From an uncultured Candidatus Saccharibacteria bacterium (GTDB lineage Bacteria; Patescibacteriota; WWE3; UBA101185; UBA10185), in NCBI GenBank assembly GCA_964638225.1, contig CAZWYL010000001.1, positions 29,342 to 72,741 on the forward strand: a DNA stretch of 43,400 bases. The letters are read 5' to 3'. Below, piece by piece: positions 2,038-27,813 of this stretch; position 1 is the first letter of the stretch; every line of letters begins with the position of its first letter. The notes beneath the pieces were generated by a model, which saw only the letters and a list, made by a program, of their open reading frames with translations, did no database searches and was not told where the DNA came from. Both the position numbers and the translations under genes were made by a program.

Positions 2038-2679
2038 ATGAAAATAGTAGTCGGAAATAAGCTAAAAGAAATATCCGAAAAGGAATTTCAACAAATAAAA
2101 GATAAATTTGAAGAAGCGGAAATTGATTTAGGTACGGGAAACGGAAGATATGTATATAAGAACGCTCTAAGAAGTCCCGAAACGCTCTACATTGGAATTG
2201 ATCCGGTTGAAAAACTGCTGAGAAGATATTCTAAGAAAGCAGTCAGAAAAGGATTGAAAAACGCATTATTTGTTCTGACCAGTGCTGAGATGCTTTCAGA
2301 GGAACTTAAAAACTCTGCTGACACTCTGAACATAATTTTACCTTGGGGAAGTCTGTTGGGATACGTGGCAAATTTTGAACAAAAAGTTATTCTGAATATA
2401 AAAGAATTAATTAAAACAAGGGGAGAATTAAAAATAATCTTTGGTTACGATAGAAAAGCCGAGCCCTCAGAAACAGATAGGTTAAATCTGGAAAAATTAA
2501 ATAAGAAATATATTCATGAAGAACTCATCCCTAAGTATGAAAATATTGGTTTTGAACTTCTGGAAAGCAAAAAGTTAGAAAAAGAAGATTTGGGTAGCTT
2601 TGAAACCAGTTGGAGTAAAAAACTTCAGTTCGGCAAACCAAGAAAGATATTTTCCCTTGAATTCAAGAAGATAAACTAA
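2038..2679 (+). CDS. 16S rRNA (adenine1408-N1)-methyltransferase, NpmA/KamB family (aminoglycoside-resistance type)
   Basis: The protein appears collinear over its whole length with the NpmA sequence as I recall it. Shared blocks are IDLGTGNGR (NpmA IDLGTGDGR), LYIGIDPVE (FYIGIDPVK), NALFVLTSAEMLSEELKNSADTLNIILPWGSLLGY (NVVFVIAAAESLPFELKNIADSISILFPWGTLLEY) and SWSKKLQFGKPRKIF (SLWAKRLAFGRKRSFF). Size is also similar (213 aa). Confidence 0.75.
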   Translation: MKIVVGNKLKEISEKEFQQIKDKFEEAEIDLGTGNGRYVYKNALRSPETLYIGIDPVEKLLRRYSKKAVRKGLKNALFVLTSAEMLSEELKNSADTLNIILPWGSLLGYVANFEQKVILNIKELIKTRGELKIIFGYDRKAEPSETDRLNLEKLNKKYIHEELIPKYENIGFELLESKKLEKEDLGSFETSWSKKLQFGKPRKIFSLEFKKIN

Positions 2680-18718: not shown

Positions 18719-19036
18719 TTGAGTGCGTCAAAGAGTTCAGATAAACTAATATACATGAGTAACTTAAAAACCAAAGACCAAACAAATTTAGTCAATGAAA
18801 GCGAAGATAAAGAGGAGATTCTGGGTAGTAAAACCGCAGTATTTAATTGCCCAAACTGTGGTAAATTAACCCAAGATGAGGTGATTTTTAATTGCAACAT
18901 CTGCGGACAAGCGGAACTTATTTTCAAAGAAGGCGTTTATATGTGTCCTCAATGTCTTGTCCCAGGAGAAAACTTTGAATGCATGGAGTGCGGAAATAAA
19001 AAAGTTACTTTGAACTTTAAGAAAAACCCAGATTAA
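18719..19036 (+). CDS. Double zinc-ribbon protein (four CxxC pairs)
   Basis: CPNC...CNIC...CPQC...CMEC. The track start is TTG; an ATG at 18755 (MSNLKTK...) is an alternative. Confidence 0.55.
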   Translation: MSASKSSDKLIYMSNLKTKDQTNLVNESEDKEEILGSKTAVFNCPNCGKLTQDEVIFNCNICGQAELIFKEGVYMCPQCLVPGENFECMECGNKKVTLNFKKNPD

Positions 19037-19037
19037 A

Positions 19038-19460
19038 TTAAGATTTTGAATCCTTCTCACGAAAATATCTTTTTAGTATTACTGCAGCCGAGTAGTGATC
19101 TTTTGTCTGCCTACTTTTCTGAGGTACTCCAGAATTTAACATAACTTTAGATGCCTTTTTAGTTGTAGAGTGTTCATCTATGAAAGTTACTGGTTTTTTT
19201 GATTTAATTTTCAAAATTTTTGCAAACTTTCTGGTCTTGAGTGATTGCGGGGTTTCCTTACCCTCAAAAGTTAGAGGCAAACCTAAAACCAACTCATCCA
19301 CATTATAGTCCCTAATTATGTGTAAAATTTTGGCAGCGGCAGCATTTGAATTTTTCCCGGATATGACATGTAAAGGCTTCGCGGCCCCCGCCCTGCCAAA
19401 AGCCAAACCTATGTTTGCTTCACCATAATCTATACCTAAAACACTTTCCACCTTGGCCAT
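19038..19460 (-). CDS. ruvX: Holliday-junction-resolvase-like / pre-16S rRNA nuclease YqgF (RuvX)
   Basis: N-terminal LGIDYGEANIGLAF, 140 aa. A strong GAGGAGGG SD lies inside the end of the upstream gene. Confidence 0.85.
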   Translation of the reverse strand: MAKVESVLGIDYGEANIGLAFGRAGAAKPLHVISGKNSNAAAAKILHIIRDYNVDELVLGLPLTFEGKETPQSLKTRKFAKILKIKSKKPVTFIDEHSTTKKASKVMLNSGVPQKSRQTKDHYSAAVILKRYFREKDSKS

Positions 19461-21011
19461 TTAACCCTCCTCTATTTCAATTAAAATTTTATCTGTATCC
19501 TTGGGAATTGTTGATTTAAAAGGTACGCCGGGAGAGAGGTTCAATTCATATGTGGAAACACTGTTCATACTACCAATTTCCCTTTGAACATCTTCTATGG
19601 AAGCTCCAGCCAACTCCTTCTTAAGAGCGGCTATGTCGATATCAGGTACTACTGTTGTTTTAACCGTAACCTGCAAATCAGCCGTTGTAGCACTCAACAC
19701 AGTATCTTCAGTTCTCCCTAAAACTTCAACATTTAATGTGTGTTTCCCTCCCGAAAGTGAGTACTCTTCAGGCACATACTCGCCCAATATATTCATTATT
19801 AATTGATCCAATTCCTTTTCAGGGTATGTTAAAGCGGAAACTCCTAAAGACTGTCTTACAAAAATCTCTTCTGCCTCATCCTCAACTTCGTGGCTTATTT
19901 CCGGTTCCTCCCAATTCTCACTTCCCGAACCCTGAATCATTTTATACCCCAAAGGAATTACCTCCTCCAGGGCTGGCTCAGCTTTAGGAGCTAATTTAGT
20001 CCGTACTTTCTCCAGTAGAACTGTTATGTCTTCTTCGGAAACAATTGCTATATATTCCTCGGAACCACCTTCAAAATCACCGTCGGATTTAGCAACCAAT
20101 TCAGATCTTTCATAGCCATTAAACTCTAAAGTTTTCCCATCGTCTATATTATATTTCTCACCAATCTCTAAAGCCTCGACCTCAGCAGCAGCTTCCCCCG
20201 GAGTCATGGGACTTGCGGGGTCTTCCGGAATTTCATAAGACAGGGGCGGCACTGTTACATCCTCGGTCAATATAAAAACTAAACCCTCATCATCACCCTT
20301 ATAAACAACTTCCGTGCCTTCCTCTAAATCAATCTCTTCCTCCATTCTATTGTAGGTACTAATGGTTCCTACAGCCTTCTCCCCCACAATTCTTTCTCCA
20401 GTAGTTTCAATACTAGTTTCTTCAAATAAAACAGTGGAAACTATCTTACCTTCTAAAGTTTTTTCTTCGGCATTTGTAGTTTCTTCGGAATCAACTCGTA
20501 CAGTTAGACTGCGTGCAATAGGTTCAGCTTTAGTAATAAGCTTTATATAGGCCTTTTGAGAAGAAACATAACGATTAACTCCATAAACTCCCACTAAAAC
20601 TACAAGCATCAGGATACCTAGCAGTACAAAGTTCAACTTAAAAGAGAAATTAGTTAAATTTGGCTTTGGTATTTTTGGAAGATTCTTCAGAGAGACAAAA
20701 CTAAAAATAGATTTCATACTAGAAAGAAAACCCTCGGAATCTCTTGTCTCAACAGCATATACCTCACTAAAATCAGCGGAGTCGGAAGTCTTTATCTGGT
20801 TAATAAGCTCCGTGCCATAAACATCATCTGTTTCAAAATTTACGGTCTTGCCTAGTTTTTCTAAACTGGAGATCAAGAATTGTAAATTTAGCCTGTTTTG
20901 CAAAATTAATGCACCGGAAGGAATAAAAACATCTATCTCAGACTCCTTAACCTTAGCTAACTCCGATAAGATCGTATAGACGTCTTTCATTTTTGCCACT
21001 TTATAAATCAT
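19461..21011 (-). CDS. Hypothetical bitopic membrane protein: cytoplasmic N-domain of about 125 aa, one TM, acidic extracytoplasmic domain of about 370 aa
   Basis: 516-aa ORF with TM FVLLGILMLVVLVGVYGV. It has an ATGA overlap with the upstream actin-fold gene and a TAA-ATG junction with ruvX. Confidence 0.7.
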   Translation of the reverse strand: MIYKVAKMKDVYTILSELAKVKESEIDVFIPSGALILQNRLNLQFLISSLEKLGKTVNFETDDVYGTELINQIKTSDSADFSEVYAVETRDSEGFLSSMKSIFSFVSLKNLPKIPKPNLTNFSFKLNFVLLGILMLVVLVGVYGVNRYVSSQKAYIKLITKAEPIARSLTVRVDSEETTNAEEKTLEGKIVSTVLFEETSIETTGERIVGEKAVGTISTYNRMEEEIDLEEGTEVVYKGDDEGLVFILTEDVTVPPLSYEIPEDPASPMTPGEAAAEVEALEIGEKYNIDDGKTLEFNGYERSELVAKSDGDFEGGSEEYIAIVSEEDITVLLEKVRTKLAPKAEPALEEVIPLGYKMIQGSGSENWEEPEISHEVEDEAEEIFVRQSLGVSALTYPEKELDQLIMNILGEYVPEEYSLSGGKHTLNVEVLGRTEDTVLSATTADLQVTVKTTVVPDIDIAALKKELAGASIEDVQREIGSMNSVSTYELNLSPGVPFKSTIPKDTDKILIEIEEG

Positions 21012-22240
21012 TTTTGTTCTTCCCGCATTTTATAATAAATATTAGATAAAGCTAGGGGCAAGGTCCAGGACAATGAGGAAGCTTCGCCTGATAAGTCTGA
21101 AATCTCTACTAATTTAGCAGAAGCAGAGATTTTCTCAAAATTGGGGGGCGCTTTAAAGGGAATCGACTTATACCAGGGCTCCGTAGAAAGCAATTGGAAA
21201 AGATCTGAAATTTCAAAACCCGAACCTACAACTAAAACTTTTGAAGAAAATGTTTTAATTCCCGTAAAGTCAAAGAAAACGGCATTTAAAGCTTGTGACC
21301 AGATAACAAAAAACTGTCTTATTACCTTCTGTACTTCTACTGCGATTGAAGAATCAAGAGTACCTTTTTTATACTTCTCTAAAACCTCTTGAGCCTCATC
21401 ATAATGTAAATCAAGCTTAGAAGAAATTTGATTCAAGATAGAGATAACACCCATATTAATAAATCTAGATCCCACTAGTCCATCTCCAAAAGCCACGGAT
21501 ACCTCTGTAAAGGCTGTGTCCAAGTTAACCAAGACACAGTTGCGATAGCTTGAATTAAGCTCTCTAAGTGAACTATAGAGCGCGTAACTCATTGAAGAAA
21601 CTGTTATAATTTTAAGTCCCAGCTTTTTAGCAACACGCTGTAATTTTCGCAGATAGAAATCTTCGGCAAAAGATCCAAACCAAGAAATTTCCAGTTCCCT
21701 ACCTTCCAAACCTATGGGATCTCTCGTAAGAGTGCCGTCAATCTTCCTGGATATATCCGCGGAGGCTATTAATTCTAAGTTAGAATCCATGTCACCTTTT
21801 TGAGTTACTAAAAGATCCTGTGCTCTGAAAAAAGCGTTTTTATGAGCTTGTTCCAAAAGTTCCGTAACCTGATCTTCTACAAAGCGCTCTTTAGCAGGTG
21901 TTTCTAATCTGACTACAGACATAAGATCAATACAATGATCTGAAGAAATACCAAACAGTACTTGTTGAGGTAATTCTGAATAATCTTCGCGCATTTCAGA
22001 AAGAATATCTTCCAAAGTTTCTATAAGATAGGCTTCTCTATCGTCCTGGTCAAATAAACCACCCGATGTTATAAATCTGGAAACAGCGCCAACAACTTGG
22101 GCTTTTACACCGCCGCTGTCGGGAGAGCTTATCATTTCAAAATAAGCCACTTGAACTTTAAATGGATCAAACTTTATCACCAAAAAGTTATCCTCCGAGG
22201 TTCTTTTTTTCTTGAAATCAAGGAAAGGCAGTTTAAACAT
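21008..22240 (-). CDS. FtsA/PilM-like actin-fold protein with degenerate nucleotide-binding motifs
   Basis: CVLVNLDTAFTEVSVAFGDGLVGSRFINMGVISI aligns with the FtsA/PilM (v)DIGGGTTD..v..G......iGG block. KVLVVGSGFEISDL aligns with the adenosine motif. The phosphate-1 DIG motif is replaced by KFDPFK. Confidence 0.6.
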   Translation of the reverse strand: MFKLPFLDFKKKRTSEDNFLVIKFDPFKVQVAYFEMISSPDSGGVKAQVVGAVSRFITSGGLFDQDDREAYLIETLEDILSEMREDYSELPQQVLFGISSDHCIDLMSVVRLETPAKERFVEDQVTELLEQAHKNAFFRAQDLLVTQKGDMDSNLELIASADISRKIDGTLTRDPIGLEGRELEISWFGSFAEDFYLRKLQRVAKKLGLKIITVSSMSYALYSSLRELNSSYRNCVLVNLDTAFTEVSVAFGDGLVGSRFINMGVISILNQISSKLDLHYDEAQEVLEKYKKGTLDSSIAVEVQKVIRQFFVIWSQALNAVFFDFTGIKTFSSKVLVVGSGFEISDLFQLLSTEPWYKSIPFKAPPNFEKISASAKLVEISDLSGEASSLSWTLPLALSNIYYKMREEQK

Positions 22241-22247
22241 TGTTTAA

Positions 22248-22253
22248 ATTATA
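22248..22253 (-). promoter_or_regulatory. -10 box TATAAT 7 nt upstream of the FtsA-like ATG (leaderless arrangement)
   Basis: The reverse complement reads ttgTATAAT-ttaaaca-ATG, within the 43-nt gap after the 720-aa gene. Confidence 0.4.
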
Positions 22254-22283
22254 CAAAAGCCTGTAATGTTTTGCTAACCGGAG

Positions 22284-24446
22284 TTATTTACCTTCTAGTA
22301 TTAAATTATGACTCTCCTCCCCCTCCTCATTCGTACGCTCACCTTCTTCTCCAAATTCAGCCTCTGCTCCATTCTCCTCCCCAACCTCATCATAAACAAC
22401 AGCTTCATTAACATCTCTTTCAAAATTATTTATTAAATCCTTAAGTTCTTGAGGGGTTTCCGGAATTTTATCGGGATTTTGCCTCAAATCCTCGAGAATC
22501 ACCAAACCCTGAGAAGAAAAAGCGGACAACTTAGCCATTCGCAGTTCCATCTCATTCCTAACTCGATCAACCTCTCTCAAAAGCAACTCCGGATCCTCTT
22601 CCAGATCAATACCTCTTTGGATTAAATTCCTCCTCGCAATTCTAAGATACTCGTTTCTCCTGCCGTAAATAGATAGAAACTTCAAGTATCCATTTCTTAT
22701 ATTTTCTTGAACCTTTTCTAGTTCAGAATACCTATCCTCGGGATCGTCTAAATCCATCTCTTCCAAACCTTCAAAACTTTCCTCAAAATGCGCCAACTGC
22801 AAATGAGCCATAAACCAAGCTTTCTGTGGGTCTGATTCCACCTGGTTTACGTGACTCTCGGCCGTCGATACAACTACTGGAGACTCCCGCTCATCCTCTG
22901 GTTGAGATTCTTGCTCCCGCTCAAAATTATCTCTCTCTTGAGCATTCTTCACCTTCTCATATTTCAACCCTACTCTCTCAAAACTTGCAACAGTTCTCTT
23001 TAAATTACGCCTCCAAGTATTATATTGCTGTGCATCCAGAGGTAACCAACAAGCTTTCTTCTTAATATCCTCGCCCTCTTTATACTCACGAATTACGGGA
23101 ACTTTGTAGAATCCGTCTTCTTGTTCACAACACTCTAATTGCCACAAAAGTTCCTGTGCCTTAACAATGGAATTTGCACCGGACTCCAAAGAATAAATAG
23201 TTTGGTAATAATAACCTTCCTCACCCGAAGATTCGCCTATTGCCAAACCCATATCCTCCCCCTTGGTCTTCACTTCAGAAAATGTGCTTCTTGCTACCTT
23301 AACTTTAACAAACTTTTCTTCAAACTCTCCGGATAACGCGGCGGGGACTTTAACAGTTTCATCACGTAGAAAGAAAAATTGCGGGGGCTTTACTTCCTTA
23401 TTTCTAAAAAACCCCTTAGTATAATCCCGCATGGGGTTTCCTTCTGAATCCACACCTTGAGTATTAATAACAAATCCTTCATCTTCCTTCACTTTTGCCC
23501 CCCAATTTCTGAAACCCTCTTTAAATTTCCTTTTATATCCCTCAGTTGTACGCTGCTCAAATACAGCTTCTTCTCCGCCCTCACCTCCGGTAGACTCCTC
23601 ACTTGCCTCTTCTGCCTCCTCAATCTCATCTTCTGGTATCAAATCTGGCCGTTCAATTGTAAGGGAGAGCGGTTCCCAAGGATGATTATCGGGGGAATGC
23701 TCGCAAAATTCTCTAACAAAACTTTGTAAGCGTTCTTGGCGAGCCTTCCTAACCTCTTCTAACCTACCATCAAAGTCCTCCACTACACTACCGTCCTCTT
23801 CCAAAAAATTCTCTGCATAATCTATAGAAAATACATTTAATTGCTCTTTCAAGTCAGTCAACACTTGCTGCTGTTTTTCAGAAAAACTATCCTCAAGCTC
23901 ATCCAAACTATCCTCATCAGAAACCAAATATGCTAAACCTTCAAAAATCCTTTTCTTAACATCATTTTGCTCCTCCTCATCTGCGATTTCGCTCGCACTT
24001 TCAAGTGAATTCTCAAGAACAACCAAAACTTCCTTATAACCCTGCCTATAATCTAATATTATTGCCTCCGCCTCTTCACTTAGACGCTCGGGTTCGTCCT
24101 CATCAGAAAAAACCTGACAGATTGCATCATAAGCAGTAACCTCCTCTTCTTGGCCCCCAATAGTCATTGTCTTTTTTTCTTCATTAAAATCATGAGAGCT
24201 CACCAATTCTCTAAGCTTTCCTATAGAGTCGCTATAGTCCCGATCTTCTACCTCTCGCTGAGCTAAGATTAGAAAATCCTCTACTTTATCTATTTCTTCG
24301 GGGAAAATCTTTTCCTCAAAATTAGAGGGGAACTCGATAAGATCGAAAATCTCACGGCTTTCCCCTCTAACAAAGGGTTCTACCTTCTCTGGTTCGGTAA
24401 AACTCCTTTCACCATTGGGCTGTAAAGTTGTAATTCCATTTGGCAT
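22284..24446 (-). CDS. Hypothetical 720-aa extremely acidic cytoplasmic protein (ORFan)
   Basis: Long uninterrupted ORF dominated by E/D, with no TM and no recognisable motif. It starts 13 nt after the ATPase gene. Confidence 0.7.
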   Translation of the reverse strand: MPNGITTLQPNGERSFTEPEKVEPFVRGESREIFDLIEFPSNFEEKIFPEEIDKVEDFLILAQREVEDRDYSDSIGKLRELVSSHDFNEEKKTMTIGGQEEEVTAYDAICQVFSDEDEPERLSEEAEAIILDYRQGYKEVLVVLENSLESASEIADEEEQNDVKKRIFEGLAYLVSDEDSLDELEDSFSEKQQQVLTDLKEQLNVFSIDYAENFLEEDGSVVEDFDGRLEEVRKARQERLQSFVREFCEHSPDNHPWEPLSLTIERPDLIPEDEIEEAEEASEESTGGEGGEEAVFEQRTTEGYKRKFKEGFRNWGAKVKEDEGFVINTQGVDSEGNPMRDYTKGFFRNKEVKPPQFFFLRDETVKVPAALSGEFEEKFVKVKVARSTFSEVKTKGEDMGLAIGESSGEEGYYYQTIYSLESGANSIVKAQELLWQLECCEQEDGFYKVPVIREYKEGEDIKKKACWLPLDAQQYNTWRRNLKRTVASFERVGLKYEKVKNAQERDNFEREQESQPEDERESPVVVSTAESHVNQVESDPQKAWFMAHLQLAHFEESFEGLEEMDLDDPEDRYSELEKVQENIRNGYLKFLSIYGRRNEYLRIARRNLIQRGIDLEEDPELLLREVDRVRNEMELRMAKLSAFSSQGLVILEDLRQNPDKIPETPQELKDLINNFERDVNEAVVYDEVGEENGAEAEFGEEGERTNEEGEESHNLILEGK

Positions 24447-24459
24447 AAGTCAATAGTAC

Positions 24460-26871
24460 CTAAAAAGGTATCCTCTTTCTAGACTTCGGGGAAGATGGTT
24501 TCTCCTCTATACCAGAGCGTCTATCTATATACTCTTCAACTTCCTTGCGATCAACCCCATATTTCATCCTAGAATGTTCTCTAATCCTTTCAGCAACAAC
24601 GGAGCTCTTATTGTCATTTGCTATGTTAACCATTTCCCAGTCCACTTTCATTGAAAATGGGGCCGTTGGATGGCCCTCTGCAAGAAGCTTAGTGTAATAA
24701 TTTCCTACCGGGAGGTTAATTAAATCACTTTGAGTGAGTTTAGGCTGAAATTGATTTTCCAAAAATTCGCCATCTTCAGAACCAACTCTAAAAACTGCCA
24801 TAGTACCTACATTTCCAAAAACAGCTTCTCTAATTTCGTCGGTCAGCTGAGAAATAAACTGATGCGCCACTATTAAATTTAATTTGTACTTGCGTGCTTC
24901 CGAAAGAATAGTTGCAAAATCAGAAGTGGCAAAGTTCTGAAACTCATCTACATACAAGTAGAAGTGAGGAAATTCTTCTCTACCAAGCTTGGAAGCTCTC
25001 CCCAAAGCAGCCTGCAGTATGCGCGGAACTAAAAGCAATCCCAAAAAGTTGGAGTTCTCTTCCCCAATCTTGCCTTTAGATAAGTCAACCAACAAGATTT
25101 TCCTTTCTACCATTATCTTGGGAAAATTAATTGCGGATTTAGGCTGACCTAAAATGTTGCGCATGGTTACATCAGTCACAAAGCGGTCAAACTTGGAAAC
25201 AAAGTAGCCCATTTTTTCTCCTTTATGATAATCACTTGTCTTAGCCATTTCATCTGTCCAATAACGCTTTACCAGCGGATCTTTTAGTTTAGGTAAAAAG
25301 CTTTTGGCATAAGACTCATCTATCAACAAACGTAAAACATCAACCAGAGTACTGTTCGGATCAGTCATGGCCGTCAACATAACGTTCCTAATTGCACGCT
25401 CCAATTGAGGGCCCATAATTCCCTGCCTGTTGGGATCATAAAGCTTATACAAAAGGGCAATAAATGAATTTATTACCATGTGTTTCTCTTCCTCAGAATG
25501 TGCCTCCAGAATATTAAGTCCCATAGGCCTTTCTAGATCAGAAACATCAAACAGGATTACATCCTCTGCCCGCTCTTCCGGAATCTTCTCTAAAATATCG
25601 TCTATGTCACTGCCATGCGGGTCAATAAAAGCTAAACCCTCTCCATTTCTTATATCCTGCAGCGCAAGGGTTTTCATAAACTCAGATTTTCCTGTACCTG
25701 TCTGTCCGATAATATAAAAATGGCGAGTCCTATCCTCAGGTAACATACATATCTTCTTCTCCATGCCTCTAAAGGCATTCTTCCCCAGGTAAATGCCCTC
25801 AGAGGGTACATCTTCCGGAGCAGGAACTTTTCGAGCCTTTAACCACTTTATTCCGGGGGTTTTAACCTCATTATTAGGAAAATGAAATATAGTAGCCATT
25901 TCCTCAGTATTCAATACAGAAATATTTCTATAAAGAGGAATATCTAAAATTGGAATACTTAAATCAATAACCTGGATAGTACGATAAATGAAATTATCAA
26001 CGATTTTGCGTTCATTAGGTTTAATTTTTTTGAACTTGTTATATTTAATATCAGTGAATTGATCAAAAGAAGTTACAATATTCTGAATGTGATGTTCCGC
26101 GGTGACTTTATCTTCAGCAATAGAAACTACTCTAATTGCTACATCAAATCCCGGCTTAGAAACTTTTTTCTCAACTCCTTCAATGAAGGAGGTATCAACA
26201 CTAGAACCACCTTCCGGATCCGAGCTCTTCTTTCTAATACCGGCAACAAAAGCATTTCCCTGTCTACGCCAATTGTTATTTGCGGGCCTTACAATATACT
26301 GAAGAGCTACTACATCATCATCCGAAAGCTTGCCCATAGAAGAAGTGATTGTGCTTAAAGCATCTGAGGCTAAATCTTCAAACGTCCTAATTGGATAGTA
26401 AGGAGCCCCGGAAAGTTTTATTTCTGCAACAGCAGTAAAGTCTCCTCGATCCCAAACTTCATTGGGATCAATAATATCTATCTCTGCCTCCGGATACGCC
26501 CCATTAATTTTCTTCTCCACGGCCAAAGCTAATTCATCGGGCACCACAACATAAAATCCTATCCCCGAAGTTTTAGCCACAATTTCAAACGAAATTCTGT
26601 ACTGCCCTTGCCAGAGAGTTTTCCACCAAGATCTCTTAAAACCCCATAAACTTGCAAAAAACTGCTCTGCTGCTTCCACTTCCACTTCATTCTCTGAGGG
26701 AAGTTTCACCAAAAGAAACGTCAGATCAAACTTGTTCAAATCCTCTATCTTTTTTCTTCTTCGACTTAGATAAAGTACAGTCGTACCAATAAGCAATCCA
26801 ATTAAAATAATCGAATATATAGAAATCCAAAAAATTACGTATAAAGTTTGATTAAGATTTACCAGACCCAT
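24460..26871 (-). CDS. Membrane-anchored VirD4/TraD/TraG-like (type IV coupling protein-like, FtsK-HerA superfamily) P-loop ATPase with an uncharacterised N-terminal domain of about 380 aa
   Basis: N-terminal TM (YVIFWISIYSIILIGLLIGTTVLYL), Walker A FYIIGQTGTGKSEF, Walker B HFYLYVDEFQNF, then KYKLNLIVAHQFISQL. This order and spacing is typical of TraD/VirD4 coupling ATPases. Confidence 0.75.
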   Translation of the reverse strand: MGLVNLNQTLYVIFWISIYSIILIGLLIGTTVLYLSRRRKKIEDLNKFDLTFLLVKLPSENEVEVEAAEQFFASLWGFKRSWWKTLWQGQYRISFEIVAKTSGIGFYVVVPDELALAVEKKINGAYPEAEIDIIDPNEVWDRGDFTAVAEIKLSGAPYYPIRTFEDLASDALSTITSSMGKLSDDDVVALQYIVRPANNNWRRQGNAFVAGIRKKSSDPEGGSSVDTSFIEGVEKKVSKPGFDVAIRVVSIAEDKVTAEHHIQNIVTSFDQFTDIKYNKFKKIKPNERKIVDNFIYRTIQVIDLSIPILDIPLYRNISVLNTEEMATIFHFPNNEVKTPGIKWLKARKVPAPEDVPSEGIYLGKNAFRGMEKKICMLPEDRTRHFYIIGQTGTGKSEFMKTLALQDIRNGEGLAFIDPHGSDIDDILEKIPEERAEDVILFDVSDLERPMGLNILEAHSEEEKHMVINSFIALLYKLYDPNRQGIMGPQLERAIRNVMLTAMTDPNSTLVDVLRLLIDESYAKSFLPKLKDPLVKRYWTDEMAKTSDYHKGEKMGYFVSKFDRFVTDVTMRNILGQPKSAINFPKIMVERKILLVDLSKGKIGEENSNFLGLLLVPRILQAALGRASKLGREEFPHFYLYVDEFQNFATSDFATILSEARKYKLNLIVAHQFISQLTDEIREAVFGNVGTMAVFRVGSEDGEFLENQFQPKLTQSDLINLPVGNYYTKLLAEGHPTAPFSMKVDWEMVNIANDNKSSVVAERIREHSRMKYGVDRKEVEEYIDRRSGIEEKPSSPKSRKRIPF

Positions 26872-27247
26872 TGTCAGTATTTACTCCTTTTACACCTTCT
26901 ATAAATTCTTCCTCCTCTTCATCGCCGTAGCGGGTTAACTCACTTTGAGATTCGGACAAAGAAATCGATTTTACTCCCTTTGATCTTTTATCTAGAATTC
27001 TACCCTGTGATTTGCTTGAATTATCGAAATCAGAAGATTCCTCTTCGTCTTCTTCCCTGGATTTGGGAATAGGAGGTTTTGGTGAAGTAAATACCTCCGG
27101 AGCTTTTTCTTCTTCCGGAGAACGCTCACTTTCTATAGAAGGCAAACCCTCAGGAGAACCTGATGGAACGTCAGCAGAAGGAGCAATATCATTACCCTCA
27201 TTTCCATTTTGATCTTCAATTTGACCTAGATCATCAGAATCCTGCAT
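26852..27247 (-). CDS. Hypothetical 131-aa acidic, S/E/P-rich intrinsically disordered protein
   Basis: ORF overlapping the ATPase start by 20 nt. It is low complexity, so its coding status is less certain. Confidence 0.5.
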   Translation of the reverse strand: MQDSDDLGQIEDQNGNEGNDIAPSADVPSGSPEGLPSIESERSPEEEKAPEVFTSPKPPIPKSREEDEEESSDFDNSSKSQGRILDKRSKGVKSISLSESQSELTRYGDEEEEEFIEGVKGVNTDNGSGKS

Positions 27248-27250
27248 GAG

Positions 27251-27502
27251 TTATTCCTCCGAAATCTCTTTCTCACCCTCTAGACCTTTTTTAAATGAAT
27301 CTATATAAGGGTCCGCTTCCTCTTTCACTTCTGAAATCTTTTCCGAACTCACCTCAGAAAGTCTTTCTAACTTTTTCAACAATTCGTTTAACTCTTTGGA
27401 TAAATTATCCCGTGTTTCCTCTCCTTTCCTTGGAGCAAAAAGAACTCCAAAAATCCCTCCGATTATGATTCCCAACCAAAAGTTATTTCTTTTTTTTGCC
27501 AT
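27251..27502 (-). CDS. YtxH-domain protein
   Basis: WLGIIIGGIFGVLFAPRKGEETRDNL matches the YtxH signature (GxxxGxxxGLLFAPKSGxETR). I prefer the ATG at 27502 (MAKKRNN). Confidence 0.7.
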   Translation of the reverse strand: MAKKRNNFWLGIIIGGIFGVLFAPRKGEETRDNLSKELNELLKKLERLSEVSSEKISEVKEEADPYIDSFKKGLEGEKEISEE

Positions 27503-27782
27503 TTTTCTCCTCCTCCTGAGAATCTGATTTCCAAATATCACTCAACGTATTAATGGATCTTGTCTGTTGAAAACCCTTCAACAAAGCAAATACAAAGGGA
27601 GCTATTTTTAAGGCCGAGCCCATAACTGAATTGGAAAAATGAGTGACATCGCTTAGAAGAGCTTGGACGGTTTTGAAAACCTTCCTAACCTGAACAAAAA
27701 GAAAAATTGCGAAAGCAATCCAAATTACAAAATTGATACTCAGTAAAACTATAAAAATTGTTGTTAATGTTTGTGTAGACAT
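27483..27782 (-). CDS. DUF948-like small membrane protein
   Basis: N-terminal TM followed by a helical region. It precedes the ytxH-like gene, the arrangement I recall for DUF948/YtxH-family genes in Firmicutes. Confidence 0.45.
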   Translation of the reverse strand: MSTQTLTTIFIVLLSINFVIWIAFAIFLFVQVRKVFKTVQALLSDVTHFSNSVMGSALKIAPFVFALLKGFQQTRSINTLSDIWKSDSQEEEKNGKKKK

Positions 27783-27804: not shown

Positions 27805-27813
27805 AGTATAGCA
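27805..27813 (-). promoter_or_regulatory. Extended -10 element TGcTATACT upstream of the DUF948-like gene
   Basis: The reverse complement of 27805-27813 is TGCTATACT, 22 nt before the ATG at 27782. Confidence 0.35.

What the first reader, a model, noticed from the sequence alone, without database searches (positions are those of the whole stretch)
22284..27247. Orphan membrane-anchored VirD4/TraD-like ATPase between two extremely acidic ORFans: candidate undescribed translocation module
The 803-aa protein has a coupling-protein-type motor: Walker A GQTGTGKS, Walker B YLYVDEFQNF and LIVAHQFISQL. This motor is fused to one N-terminal TM and an N-domain of about 380 aa that I cannot assign. No other T4SS part (VirB4, VirB6, VirB8-10), relaxase, integrase or plasmid gene is visible anywhere in the 43 kb. 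Its start is overlapped by 20 nt by a 131-aa acidic disordered ORF. It is followed 13 nt later by a 720-aa, strongly D/E-rich soluble ORFan with no recognisable motif. The trio lies in a core housekeeping array, downstream of ftsK-rodZ and a DUF948/YtxH pair, and a candidate promoter at 27805-27813 would make DUF948-YtxH-131aa-ATPase-720aa one unit. Coupling ATPases normally hand a nucleoprotein or protein substrate to a channel. Here the only plausible partners are the co-encoded polyanionic, possibly DNA-mimicking proteins. This suggests a chromosomally fixed, non-conjugative translocation or export function, which would be relevant for an epibiotic reduced-genome organism. The function is inference only.
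Basis: partly seen in the sequence, partly recalled or inferred. Interest (0 to 1): 0.8.

Follow-up and report, generated by a model that had tools for sequence, protein, structure and literature searches.

The report
Chromosomal coupling-protein ATPase of WWE3 bacteria
The 803-aa gene is one copy of a huge, already catalogued family of conjugation-type "coupling" ATPases that candidate-phyla-radiation bacteria keep as a fixed chromosomal gene with a small acidic partner, and the large acidic neighbour is a lineage-specific add-on, so the proposed new three-gene translocation module is not supported as such.

Summary
The sequence facts hold: the three minus-strand ORFs, the Walker motifs, one N-terminal TM helix, the 20-nt overlap, the 13-nt gap, the strong acidity and a housekeeping context.

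The ATPase is not an orphan. It has thousands of homologues (5,395 clusters at E<=1e-30), at 60-82% identity across WWE3. Its "unassignable" N-domain is Pfam DUF8128, and its predicted fold matches only the N-terminal domain of VirB4/TrwK. Full-length homologues sit next to relaxase-family and Tcp/VirB4-like genes on Bacillus plasmids, and also occur in Bacillus phages and haloarchaeal plasmids. It is therefore a monoderm-type type IV coupling protein (T4CP). A 2025 census already reported T4CP homologues unlinked to virB4 in nearly all Patescibacteria.

The partners differ:
- **131-aa protein:** a conserved partner, with the overlap and a C-terminal Glu-rich motif kept in 55 loci.
- **720-aa protein:** not conserved. 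43 of 58 relatives have an FtsA/PilM-like gene directly after the ATPase, and its core also occurs alone elsewhere.

Best reading: a membrane-anchored T4CP motor with a small adaptor or regulator, feeding a channel encoded elsewhere or exapted. This is a new member of a known kind, of moderate interest.

The parts
24460..26871 (-). 803-aa membrane-anchored T4CP-type ATPase of the DUF8128 + DUF87/HerA + TraG-D_C family
   Evidence: ORF. Pfam and NCBIfam hits. Precomputed PF26449 + PF01935 + PF12696 on this exact protein. AF2 model with pLDDT 87.6. Foldseek matches to VirB4, HerA and TrwB.
26764..26856 (-). Single N-terminal transmembrane helix (residues ~6-36), followed by RRRKK. The inferred topology is N-out, with the motor in the cytoplasm.
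   Evidence: Hydropathy. Continuous helix 4-45 in the model. Coordinates. The topology is inferred from the positive-inside rule.
25747..26736 (-). N-domain (residues 46-375), equal to Pfam DUF8128, with a VirB4-N-terminal-domain-like fold
   Evidence: PF26449 label. Separate AF2 model with pLDDT 79.5 and pTM 0.80. The top 12 Foldseek PDB hits are all TrwK/VirB4 chains (E 1.4e-6 to 3e-5, TMq 0.39-0.47). hhalign to the Bacillus plasmid homologue gives prob 98.4 and E 5.5e-15.
24514..25746 (-). P-loop nucleotide-binding domain (residues 376-786) with a long helical insert at ~460-630
   Evidence: Pfam DUF87 at 382-427 and TraG-D_C at 637-699. Foldseek TrwB TMt 0.55-0.61 over ~410 columns. Secondary structure.
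25684..25707 (-). Walker A, GQTGTGKS (residues 389-396)
   Evidence: G389-K395 are invariant in 70 homologues.
24931..24960 (-). Walker B, YLYVDEFQNF (residues 638-647)
   Evidence: D642, E643, F644, Q645 and N646 are invariant.
24844..24876 (-). LIVAHQFISQL (residues 666-676), a sensor-like motif after Walker B
   Evidence: Q671, F672, Q675 and L676 are invariant.
24463..24513 (-). Low-confidence C-terminal tail that ends in a nearly invariant IPF-COOH; a possible docking peptide (inference)
   Evidence: pLDDT about 50 for the last 20 residues. P802 and F803 are nearly invariant.
26852..27247 (-). 131-aa acidic, probably disordered partner protein, translationally coupled to the ATPase by a 20-nt overlap
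   Evidence: ORF. 75% disorder-promoting residues. An ORF of about 70-270 aa (mostly 100-170 aa) lies at this position in nearly all of the WWE3 loci, net acidic in all but a few, typically overlapping by 20-23 nt.
26882..27004 (-). Conserved C-terminal motif of the partner (residues 82-122: GRILDKRSK...ELTRYGDEEEEEFIEGVKGV). The WWE3 consensus is VDxRT..LHxV..DxLTxxADxEEExFIxxVExxH.
   Evidence: Alignment and HMM. The motif HMM hits one ORF in each of 55 loci, the window included.
22284..24446 (-). 720-aa acidic protein; an accessory, lineage-variable gene at a variable site, not a conserved partner
   Evidence: ORF. Only one database homologue at 34% identity, while the neighbouring ATPases are 82% identical. 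No Pfam or PDB match. Absent from this site in 43 of 58 loci.
22905..23564 (-). Conserved globular core of the 720-aa protein (residues 295-514); the flanks are 29% D+E
   Evidence: jackhmmer finds the core in the inserts of L001, L006, L007, L016, L017 and L024. It is 42% identical to the stand-alone 333-aa P0310 in an unrelated locus. Composition by segment.
21008..22240 (-). 410-aa FtsA/PilM-like actin-fold protein; context that is syntenic within WWE3 only
   Evidence: NCBIfam weak FtsA and PilM hits. Family profile against the PDB gives FtsA 7.6e-14 and PilM 8.9e-14. It lies downstream of the ATPase in 58 loci and is absent from non-WWE3 loci.
19461..21011 (-). 516-aa single-TM protein with a large extracytoplasmic part; context
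   Evidence: TM at residues 119-137. Colinear in 50 loci. Only weak GlxA beta-barrel, Baseplate_J and phrog_6 hits.
19038..19460 (-). RuvX (YqgF); the end of the colinear WWE3 block
   Evidence: Pfam RuvX, E 2.9e-32. Synteny.
27251..27541 (-). YtxH-family protein 3 nt upstream of the partner gene. The real start is probably the ATG at 27502.
   Evidence: Pfam YtxH, E 1.8e-14. Found in 36 loci. A GGAGGAGGAG ribosome-binding site lies before the ATG.
27805..27813 (-).
   Evidence: Sequence. It was not picked up by the two-hexamer scan, whose hits are at chance level.
22248..22277 (-). Best promoter-like match in the region (TTAGCA-18-TATAAT), between the 720-aa gene and the FtsA-like gene
   Evidence: It matches 10 of 12 positions. 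It is a consensus match only.

Best explanation
What it is.
- Shown: the 803-aa protein is the WWE3 (Patescibacteria) orthologue of a very large family of monoderm-type type IV coupling proteins.
- Its parts are one N-terminal membrane helix, a cytoplasmic DUF8128 domain with the fold of the VirB4 N-terminal domain, and an intact VirD4/TrwB-like P-loop domain.

How it works.
- Inferred by homology: it forms a ring at the membrane and uses ATP to receive a macromolecular substrate and feed it to a membrane channel.
- Inferred: the channel is most probably the relaxase-less T4SS-type apparatus that Patescibacteria encode elsewhere in the chromosome, so the cargo is more likely protein than conjugative DNA.

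The neighbours.
- Shown: the 131-aa acidic, disordered protein is a conserved, translationally coupled partner.
- Inferred: its conserved Glu-rich/hydrophobic C-terminal peptide binds the motor as an adaptor, regulator or model substrate.
- Shown: the 720-aa acidic protein is a lineage-specific accessory gene inserted at a variable site. It is not part of the core.
For: Family size.
- 5,213 hits at E<=1e-5 were found. The top 120 are 59-82% identical over the full length, from WWE3/Patescibacteria, and all carry PF26449.
- There are 21,479, 13,585 and 5,395 clusters at E<=1e-3, 1e-10 and 1e-30.

T4CP identity.
- Pfam gives TraG-D_C and DUF87 above their cut-offs, plus TrwB_AAD_bind.
- NCBIfam best hits are SXT_TraD (2.6e-13) and VirD4-like CD1115 (1.9e-10).
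- The family profile against the PDB gives DotL/IcmO and TrwB.
- Foldseek gives VirB4 5e-15, HerA 1.8e-12 and TrwB 3.6e-12, with TrwB TMt up to 0.61.
- UniRef names WWE3 members 'T4SS coupling protein TraD DNA-binding domain-containing'.

N-domain.
- Foldseek hits with the N-domain alone are exclusively the VirB4/TrwK N-terminal domain at the top of the list.

Functional context of full-length homologues.
- On B. subtilis plasmids the homologue covers residues 72-743 (E 2e-41). It is followed directly by a 'replication-relaxation family protein'. After that come conjugal-transfer, TcpD/TcpE and an ~850-aa ATP-binding gene.
- The N-domain homology to that plasmid protein is confirmed by hhalign.
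- In phage G the homologue follows a VirB4-like gene.
- In SPO1 it precedes a nicking protein.
- On a haloarchaeal plasmid it sits next to a conjugal transfer protein.

Literature.
- 5,713 T4CP homologues were reported in 2,918 of 3,035 Patescibacteria genomes, only 148 of them near virB4. Relaxases are almost absent (PMC12102498).
- An example genome has a VirB4/B6/B3/B2 cluster plus a distant t4cp1 hit.

Partner.
- The overlap and the C-terminal motif are conserved in 55 loci.
- A small ORF lies directly upstream in 4 of 5 distant relatives.

Selection.
- The ATPase is more conserved than FtsK in 16 of 18 loci that hold both.

A T4SS-pilin-like gene does exist in at least one WWE3 locus (L014) and in L082.
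Against: - No VirB4, VirB6, TcpE, relaxase or nickase homologue lies within 10 kb in the window or in any of 85 related CPR loci.
- I could not show that WWE3 genomes hold a T4SS at all.
- The literature says the Saccharibacteria t4cp homologue is dispensable while the T4SS is essential. T4CP hits are also more widespread than VirB4 (2,918 against 2,417 genomes). Both points argue for a T4SS-independent role.
- I could not verify by accession that the published 't4cp1' hits are this DUF8128 family.
- The protein scores far below the curated cut-offs of every named TraD/VirD4 equivalog.
- It has one TM helix, not the usual two.
- Oligomeric state, substrate and partner binding are all untested.
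Confidence: 0.5

Rival explanations
1. Exapted housekeeping motor. The T4CP-type ATPase and its small partner no longer serve a T4SS. They work on their own at the membrane in a core process such as division-linked DNA or envelope handling. In WWE3 this may involve the adjacent FtsA/PilM-like protein and the 516-aa bitopic protein.
For: - The block ATPase, FtsA-like, p516, RuvX is colinear in 50 loci.
- The ATPase is more conserved than FtsK in 16 of 18 loci.
- No T4SS genes lie nearby.
- T4CP hits occur in more genomes than VirB4.
Against: - The FtsA-like and p516 genes are not found next to the ATPase outside WWE3.
- In 15 WWE3 loci unrelated genes sit between them, including alanyl-tRNA synthetase. 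The linkage therefore looks like inherited gene order in a housekeeping array, not a dedicated operon.
- FtsK/RodZ adjacency holds in only 13-18 of 80 loci.
- No known precedent was found for a T4CP acting without a channel.
Confidence: 0.3
2. A self-contained three-gene translocation or export module, in which the two polyanionic (DNA-mimicking) proteins are the substrates or partners of the motor.
For: - The genes are tightly packed.
- Both neighbours are the most acidic ORFs of the window.
- The 131-aa protein is a conserved partner.
- ac720-family proteins, where present, always sit directly after the ATPase.
- The Bacillus plasmid homologue carries a ~150-aa acidic tail fused to its C-terminus.
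Against: - The 720-aa gene is missing at this site in 43 of 58 loci, including one whose ATPase is 78% identical.
- Its core exists alone in a glycoside-hydrolase locus with no such ATPase.
- The upstream proteins of non-WWE3 relatives are not acidic.
- No channel component lies in the module.
- There is no evidence for DNA mimicry.
Confidence: 0.08
3. Decaying remnant of an integrated conjugative element, plasmid or prophage.
For: - Full-length homologues occur on plasmids and in phages.
- There is a strong PHROG match, phrog_5156, at 5.7e-86.
Against: - The catalytic motifs are intact, and identity is 60-82% across a whole class.
- Synteny within housekeeping genes is stable across 80 genomes.
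- There is no GC anomaly: 0.38-0.41 against the window range of 0.31-0.43.
- No integrase, relaxase or repeats were found nearby.
Confidence: 0.03
4. HerA/DUF87-type anti-phage defence ATPase.
For: Weak PADLOC hits to mad8 (8e-17) and HerA/DndH models, and weak nSTAND Pfam hits.
Against: - The hits cover only the generic P-loop region.
- There is no effector partner, and none of the four neighbouring proteins tested matches PADLOC.
- Near-universal, syntenic, single-locus conservation is unlike defence islands.
Confidence: 0.02

Closest known systems
DUF8128-type coupling-protein homologues of Bacillus plasmids (e.g. WP_121549396.1 on NZ_CP032854.1) and Bacillus phages (phage G gp156, SPO1 gp27.4; phrog_5156)
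   Same: The two-domain architecture is colinear: DUF8128 N-domain plus T4CP-like P-loop domain. tblastn covers residues 72-743 at E 2e-41 and 81-793 at 4e-42. hhalign of the N-domain gives prob 98.4.
   Different: - The plasmid protein lacks the N-terminal TM helix and has a fused ~150-aa acidic C-terminal tail.
- It sits in a conjugation operon next to a relaxase-family gene. The window gene has no such neighbours and has a separate small acidic partner.
- Identity is only ~20-25%.
Canonical type IV coupling proteins: TrwB (R388), VirD4, TraD, DotL/IcmO, Cagbeta
   Same: - Membrane-anchored FtsK/HerA-superfamily P-loop domain with a helical insert.
- TraG-D_C and TrwB_AAD_bind signatures.
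- Foldseek TM 0.55-0.61 to TrwB.
- Best PDB sequence hits are DotL and TrwB.
   Different: - It has an extra ~330-aa VirB4-NTD-like domain between the anchor and the motor.
- It has one TM helix instead of two.
- It scores far below the curated family cut-offs.
- It has no linked relaxase or channel genes.
VirB4/TrwK, the T4SS assembly ATPase
   Same: The overall N-domain plus P-loop-domain layout is shared. The N-domain fold matches only the VirB4 NTD. The full model's best Foldseek E-values are to TrwK.
   Different: - Sequence membership fails: TIGR00929 scores 23.7 bits against a cut-off of 643.
- The family lacks PF19044, which marks the published Patescibacteria VirB4.
- The TM-score for the whole chain is only ~0.3.
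- No VirB3, TrsD or VirB6 neighbours are present.
Unlinked T4CP homologues of Patescibacteria, as reported in PMC12102498
   Same: A chromosomal, relaxase-less T4CP-type gene far from virB4, present in almost every genome. The function is unknown and possibly exapted.
   Different: - The identity of the published t4cp1 hits with this DUF8128 family is inferred, not checked by accession.
- That paper does not describe the DUF8128/VirB4-like N-domain, the small partner or the WWE3 gene order.
HerA and FtsK translocases, and the archaeal CedB/CedD DNA importers
   Same: They belong to the same P-loop superfamily. There are weak DUF87, CedB and CedD hits at the Walker A region, and Foldseek gives HerA 1.8e-12.
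   Different: - The hits are local only.
- There are no NurA or Ced partners.
- A separate, bona fide FtsK is encoded 1.7 kb upstream.

Membership tests
Type IV coupling protein (VirD4/TrwB/TraD) | FtsK/HerA-superfamily P-loop domain with intact Walker A and B | tested here: met
   The motifs are at residues 389-396 and 638-647 and are invariant in 70 homologues. DUF87 scores 27.2 bits (cut-off 23.2) and TraG-D_C scores 25.2 bits (cut-off 22).
Type IV coupling protein (VirD4/TrwB/TraD) | All-alpha domain inserted in the nucleotide-binding domain | tested here: inconclusive
   The model shows a helical block at ~460-630. TrwB_AAD_bind scores 22.1 bits (cut-off 20.5), but no single stretch passes. 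TM to TrwB-deltaN70 is 0.55-0.61. I did not check that the helical insert itself superposes.
Type IV coupling protein (VirD4/TrwB/TraD) | N-terminal membrane anchor | tested here: met
   There is one hydrophobic helix at residues ~6-36 followed by RRRKK. Canonical members usually have two helices (general knowledge; pLS20 p48 has 2).
Type IV coupling protein (VirD4/TrwB/TraD) | Score above the curated cut-off of a named T4CP family model | tested here: not met
   SXT_TraD scores 49.3 bits against 366. CD1115 scores 40.2 against 250. TOL TraD scores 26.8 against 647.
Type IV coupling protein (VirD4/TrwB/TraD) | Genetic linkage to a relaxase and/or T4SS channel genes | tested here: not met
   None was found in the window or in 85 CPR loci by phmmer with plasmid and phage VirB4-like, relaxase, TcpE, conjugal-transfer and nickase queries. 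The feature is met for the Bacillus plasmid homologues.
Type IV coupling protein (VirD4/TrwB/TraD) | Hexameric ring that couples a substrate to a channel | not testable with these tools
   No multimer prediction or experiment was available.
DUF8128-type T4CP-like family (PF26449 + PF01935 + PF12696) | DUF8128 N-domain followed by the P-loop domain, colinear over the full length | tested here: met
   Precomputed domains on the window's own protein P0001. The label PF26449:DUF8128. Full-length hits. hhalign. My local Pfam copy lacks PF26449, so I could not rescore it.
VirB4 | VirB4-type N-terminal domain fold | tested here: met
   With the N-domain model alone, the top 12 PDB hits are all TrwK/VirB4 (E 1.4e-6 to 3e-5, prob 1.0, TMq 0.39-0.47).
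VirB4 | VirB4 sequence family membership (TIGR00929; PF19044/PF03135) | tested here: not met
   TIGR00929 scores 23.7 bits against 643. PF19044 and PF03135 appear in none of the 120 listed homologues. The published Patescibacteria VirB4 carries PF19044.
VirB4 | Neighbouring VirB3/TrsD/VirB6 genes | tested here: not met
   The window and loci scans found none. The upstream small protein is disordered, not a folded TrsD-like domain; this last point is an inference.
HerA helicase | HAS-barrel N-domain and a NurA nuclease partner | tested here: not met
   The DUF87 hit is limited to residues 382-427. The N-domain matches the VirB4 NTD instead. No nuclease neighbour is present.
Anti-phage HerA/DUF87 systems (PADLOC) | Model match together with a cognate effector partner | tested here: not met
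   Only local P-loop matches were found (mad8 8e-17; HerA 2.7e-7). None of the four neighbouring proteins tested has a PADLOC hit.

The most novel reading that the evidence does not exclude
In WWE3, and perhaps in most Patescibacteria, the conjugation-derived coupling ATPase has been exapted. Together with its small acidic partner it would form a T4SS-independent, near-essential membrane machine. In WWE3 this machine may work with the adjacent FtsA/PilM-like protein and the 516-aa envelope protein. That would be a new use for a T4CP/VirB4-hybrid motor in cell-envelope or DNA handling.
Probability: 0.2. Interest if true: 0.7.

Novelty: new member of a known kind. Interest (0 to 1): 0.35.

Why it matters
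Patescibacteria depend on surface machines to live on other cells, and their T4SS is essential in the one genetically tractable species. A coupling-type ATPase is kept in nearly every genome, unlinked from the T4SS, without a relaxase, and (in WWE3) more conserved than FtsK. It is an unexplained piece of that biology.

This work adds three usable facts:
- The "unknown" N-domain (DUF8128) is VirB4-NTD-like. It is shared with the coupling-protein-position genes of Bacillus plasmids and phages.
- The motor has a conserved, translationally coupled small partner with a defined C-terminal peptide.
- The large acidic neighbour is dispensable.

These facts give concrete handles, namely the peptide, the N-domain and the IPF tail, for interaction and knock-down experiments. 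For this particular window the result is mostly deflationary. It is an ordinary member of a catalogued family, not a new kind of module.

Tried and rejected
- **Local Pfam on the N-domain.** No hit, because PF26449 is newer than the local copy. This was resolved through precomputed domains.
- **Literature search for PF26449/DUF8128.** No papers were found.
- **Homologue searches for the 720-aa protein.** The full-length query found only one relative. The core-only query found one stand-alone protein. Pfam on 10 positional analogues and the PDB by sequence gave nothing.
- **p516 family profile against the PDB.** Nothing was found.
- **Linking the family to the published t4cp1 table.** None of 11 accession or genome terms is in the stored, truncated part of Table S3. 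That link therefore stays an inference.
- **SPO1 gp27.9 (ParM-type) against the WWE3 FtsA-like family.** No relationship was found (hhalign prob 0.1). The actin-fold neighbour in both contexts is treated as coincidence.
- **The 808-aa protein near the ATPase in L082.** I suspected a VirB4, but it has no P-loop hit.
- **pLS20 itself.** It uses a classical 2-TM VirD4 (p48), so the Bacillus plasmids hit here are a different, Tcp-like set.
- **Promoter and terminator scans.** Both are at chance level, so the operon structure is not resolved.
- **Beyond the right window edge.** The contigs on record end there.
- **Domain fusions in giant relatives (1,000-2,000 aa).** No informative extra domains were found.
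- **Defence-system and decayed-mobile-element readings.** Both were rejected, as set out under the rival explanations.

Full report
**1. Observation**

- 131 aa at 26852-27247
- 803 aa at 24460-26871
- 720 aa at 22284-24446

The small ORF overlaps the ATPase start by 20 nt, and the large one starts 13 nt after the ATPase stop.

The quoted motifs are present at residues 389-396, 638-647 and 666-676. Their key residues are invariant in an alignment of 70 homologues. One hydrophobic helix (about residues 6-36) is followed by RRRKK.

The 131-aa and 720-aa proteins have 26% and 25% D+E, with net charges of -20 and -90. They are the two most acidic of 40 window ORFs, although NusA is as acidic.

Pfam scans of the remaining ORFs show a housekeeping array: NusA, IF-2, S15, PNPase, RNase J, UDG, FtsK, RodZ-like, YtxH, RuvX, MiaB/MiaA and YceG. 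There is no T4SS part, relaxase or integrase. The DNA just left of the window is also housekeeping.

Two details were not confirmed:
- The 99-aa membrane protein has no DUF948 hit.
- The 'promoter' is only an extended -10-like string, in a region where promoter-like and terminator-like matches are at chance level.

**2. What the ATPase is**

It is not an orphan. A word-indexed search returned 5,213 hits at E<=1e-5. The best 120 are full-length, 59-82% identical, and from candidate division WWE3 or Patescibacteria. All carry PF26449 plus, mostly, PF01935 and PF12696. PF26449 is labelled DUF8128. An exhaustive HMMER search of 50%-identity representatives gave 21,479, 13,585 and 5,395 clusters at E<=1e-3, 1e-10 and 1e-30.

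An AlphaFold model built on 70 homologues is confident, with pLDDT 87.6 and pTM 0.77. Its best PDB matches are as follows:

| Target | Foldseek E-value | Note |
|---|---|---|
| TrwK/VirB4 | 5e-15 | whole-chain alignment |
| HerA | 1.8e-12 | |
| TrwB | 3.6e-12 | TM up to 0.61 on the target |

The N-domain (residues 40-375) was modelled alone, with pLDDT 79.5 and pTM 0.80. It matches only the N-terminal domain of TrwK/VirB4 at the top of the list: 12 of 12 hits, E 1.4e-6 to 3e-5, TMq 0.39-0.47.

At the sequence level the P-loop domain looks like a coupling protein:
- Pfam gives TraG-D_C and TrwB_AAD_bind.
- NCBIfam best hits are SXT_TraD and VirD4-like CD1115.
- The family profile against the PDB gives DotL and TrwB.

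All of these are far below the curated cut-offs.

**3. Relatives with a known context**

Full-length homologues that include the DUF8128 domain occur in four other settings:
- **46 Bacillus-type phages**. Phage G gp156 follows a VirB4-like gp155. SPO1 gp27.4 precedes gp27.3, annotated 'replication initiation by nicking'.
- **A PHROG family of unknown function**, phrog_5156, at 5.7e-86.
- **269 plasmids**.
- **A haloarchaeal plasmid**, where the N-domain and the ATPase are adjacent genes beside a conjugal transfer protein.

On B. subtilis plasmids the homologue is immediately followed by a 'replication-relaxation family protein'. After that come conjugal-transfer, TcpD/TcpE and an ~850-aa ATP-binding gene. 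That is the coupling-protein position of a Gram-positive conjugation operon. This reading of the position is an inference from annotation and gene order. hhalign confirms N-domain homology to that plasmid protein, with prob 98.4, E 5.5e-15 and 285 columns.

The family is therefore a monoderm-type T4CP whose extra N-domain is VirB4-like.

**4. Literature**

Quinonero-Coronel et al. 2025 (PMC12102498) reported the following for Patescibacteria:
- VirB4 is present in 2,417 of 3,035 genomes.
- 5,713 T4CP homologues were found in 2,918 genomes, with only 148 of them near virB4.
- Relaxases are almost absent.
- The Southlakia t4cp is non-essential.
- Exaptation 'cannot be ruled out'.

Their table shows a genome with a VirB4(PF19044)/VirB6/VirB3/VirB2 cluster and a separate t4cp1 hit. 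None of the 120 homologues here carries PF19044. UniRef names WWE3 members as TraD-type coupling proteins. I therefore infer that this family corresponds to those t4cp1 hits. I could not verify this by accession.

**5. Neighbourhood in 80 species-level genomes**

Some public records in this set are labelled Saccharibacteria or Patescibacteria group, but they share the WWE3 gene order.

*The small upstream protein is conserved.*
- An ORF of about 70-270 aa (mostly 100-170 aa), net acidic in all but a few loci, precedes the ATPase in almost all WWE3 loci. It typically overlaps the ATPase start by 20-23 nt.
- Its variable N-part is followed by a conserved C-terminal motif, VDxRT..LHxV..DxLTxxADxEEExFIxxVExxH. 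An HMM of that motif finds it once in each of 55 loci, the window included.
- Four of five much more distant relatives also have a small ORF directly upstream.
- In non-WWE3 relatives that protein is neutral or basic and ends in a different motif, WLxAWWxRQxKK.

*The 720-aa protein is not conserved.*
- Of 58 loci with the downstream FtsA-like gene, 43 have it directly after the ATPase and 15 have something inserted.
- Only seven sites, the window included, hold an ac720-family protein.
- Four inserts hold alanyl-tRNA synthetase. Others hold opposite-strand or unrelated genes.
- A genome whose ATPase is 78% identical lacks the 720-aa gene.
- The nearest homologue is 34% identical, while the adjacent ATPases are 82% identical.
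- Its globular core (residues 295-514) is 42% identical to a stand-alone 333-aa protein in a glycoside-hydrolase locus with no such ATPase.

*Downstream genes.*
- The block ATPase, FtsA/PilM-like, 516-aa bitopic protein, RuvX is colinear in 50 loci.
- That block is not found outside WWE3.
- FtsK/RodZ adjacency holds in only 13-18 loci.

No VirB4-like, relaxase, TcpE, conjugal-transfer or nickase homologue lies within 10 kb in any CPR locus. Only pilin-like genes were found, in L014 and L082.

**6. How it most likely works**

Shown:
- A membrane-anchored protein with a VirB4-NTD-like domain and an intact T4CP-type ATPase.
- Strong purifying selection, with identity higher than FtsK in 16 of 18 loci that hold both.
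- A co-translated small partner with a conserved C-terminal peptide.

Inferred from family knowledge (T4CPs such as TrwB, VirD4 and DotL):
- It forms a ring that receives substrates and feeds them to a channel.
- The channel is probably the relaxase-less Patescibacteria T4SS encoded elsewhere, so protein cargo is more likely than conjugative DNA.
- The partner's Glu-rich peptide docks on the motor as an adaptor, regulator or substrate.

Three leads, not tests:
- Glu-rich C-terminal signals are recognised by the Dot/Icm coupling complex, and the acidic TraD tail binds TraM (from memory).
- The Bacillus homologue carries a fused acidic tail.
- The motor ends in a nearly invariant IPF.

The main rival is a T4SS-independent, exapted housekeeping role. 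My evidence cannot exclude it, and several facts favour it: there is no linkage to T4SS genes, the published t4cp is dispensable while the T4SS is essential, and T4CP hits are more widespread than VirB4. The decayed-element and defence readings are unlikely.

**7. Comparison, novelty and score**

It works like a T4CP. It belongs to the DUF8128-type T4CP-like family, with both architecture and homology tested and met. It is not a member of any curated TraD/VirD4 or VirB4 equivalog, because the cut-offs are not met.

For this window the finding is a new member of a known kind. The points not found in the papers read here concern the family, not this locus:
- the VirB4-like N-domain
- the link to plasmid and phage coupling-position genes
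- the small partner motif
- the variable insertion site

Interest is 0.35. The most novel reading not excluded is a T4SS-independent machine, with probability about 0.2.

**8. Limits**

- No multimer modelling was possible.
- No whole-genome view of WWE3 was available.
- No transcript data were available.
- The local Pfam copy lacks PF26449.
- The supplementary table of the key paper is truncated in the held copy.

Noticed in passing
window 2038-2679 (+): A 213-aa protein matches the NpmA-type 16S rRNA (A1408) methyltransferase family strongly (Pfam PF24675, E 1e-56). This is an aminoglycoside-resistance-type enzyme in a WWE3 genome.
   Followed up: no
window 22241-24459, and the same site in L002-L063: The gap between the ATPase and the FtsA-like gene is a variable insertion site across WWE3. 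It is empty in 43 loci and filled in 15. The inserts are ac720-family proteins, alanyl-tRNA synthetase (L020, L054, L056, L063), opposite-strand genes or unknown ORFs.
   Followed up: partly
window 19461-22240 (-): An FtsA/PilM-like actin-fold protein scores equally well against FtsA and PilM structures. It is followed by a 516-aa bitopic protein with weak GlxA beta-barrel, Baseplate_J and baseplate-wedge similarity. The pair is conserved with RuvX in 50 WWE3 genomes, and its function is unknown.
   Followed up: partly
L087 (Bacillus phage SPO1, NC_011421.1 88188-100146): SPO1 carries a plasmid-like block: gp27.9 (ParM-type, PDB ParM 3.4e-16), gp27.4 (DUF8128 coupling-type ATPase homologue) and gp27.3 ('replication initiation by nicking'). 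Phage G pairs a VirB4-like gp155 with gp156.
   Followed up: partly
L094 6649-7650; L095 3854-4855 (P0310): A stand-alone 333-aa homologue (42% identity) of the 720-aa protein's core sits next to a HEAT-repeat protein in a glycoside-hydrolase cluster, with no coupling ATPase nearby.
   Followed up: partly
window 24463-24513 (-): The ATPase ends in a low-confidence linker and a nearly invariant C-terminal IPF, which may be a docking peptide.
   Followed up: no
L096 (Natrinema plasmid pNVE500) 6764-10994: In haloarchaeal plasmids the DUF8128-like N-domain and the ATPase are two overlapping genes beside a 1,102-aa conjugal transfer protein. This is a split version of the same architecture.
   Followed up: no
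proteins P0146, P0151, P0196 and others: Many relatives are giants of 1,400-2,000 aa, with the ATPase at either end. The extra ~900-1,200 aa have no informative Pfam match.
   Followed up: partly
window 18719-19036 (+): A 105-aa ORF with four CxxC pairs (zinc-ribbon-like) lies on the opposite strand between the HAD hydrolase gene and RuvX. It has no Pfam hit.
   Followed up: no
window 27483-27541 (-): The YtxH gene probably starts at the ATG at 27502, behind a GGAGGAGGAG ribosome-binding site, not at the GTG at 27541. That leaves a 20-nt overlap with the preceding 99-aa membrane-protein gene.
   Followed up: no
L014 798-1148: A lone T4SS-pilin-like 116-aa gene lies between a flippase-like gene and lepA in a WWE3 genome, 9 kb from the ATPase. 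It shows that WWE3 encodes at least scattered T4SS-pilin-type proteins.
   Followed up: no
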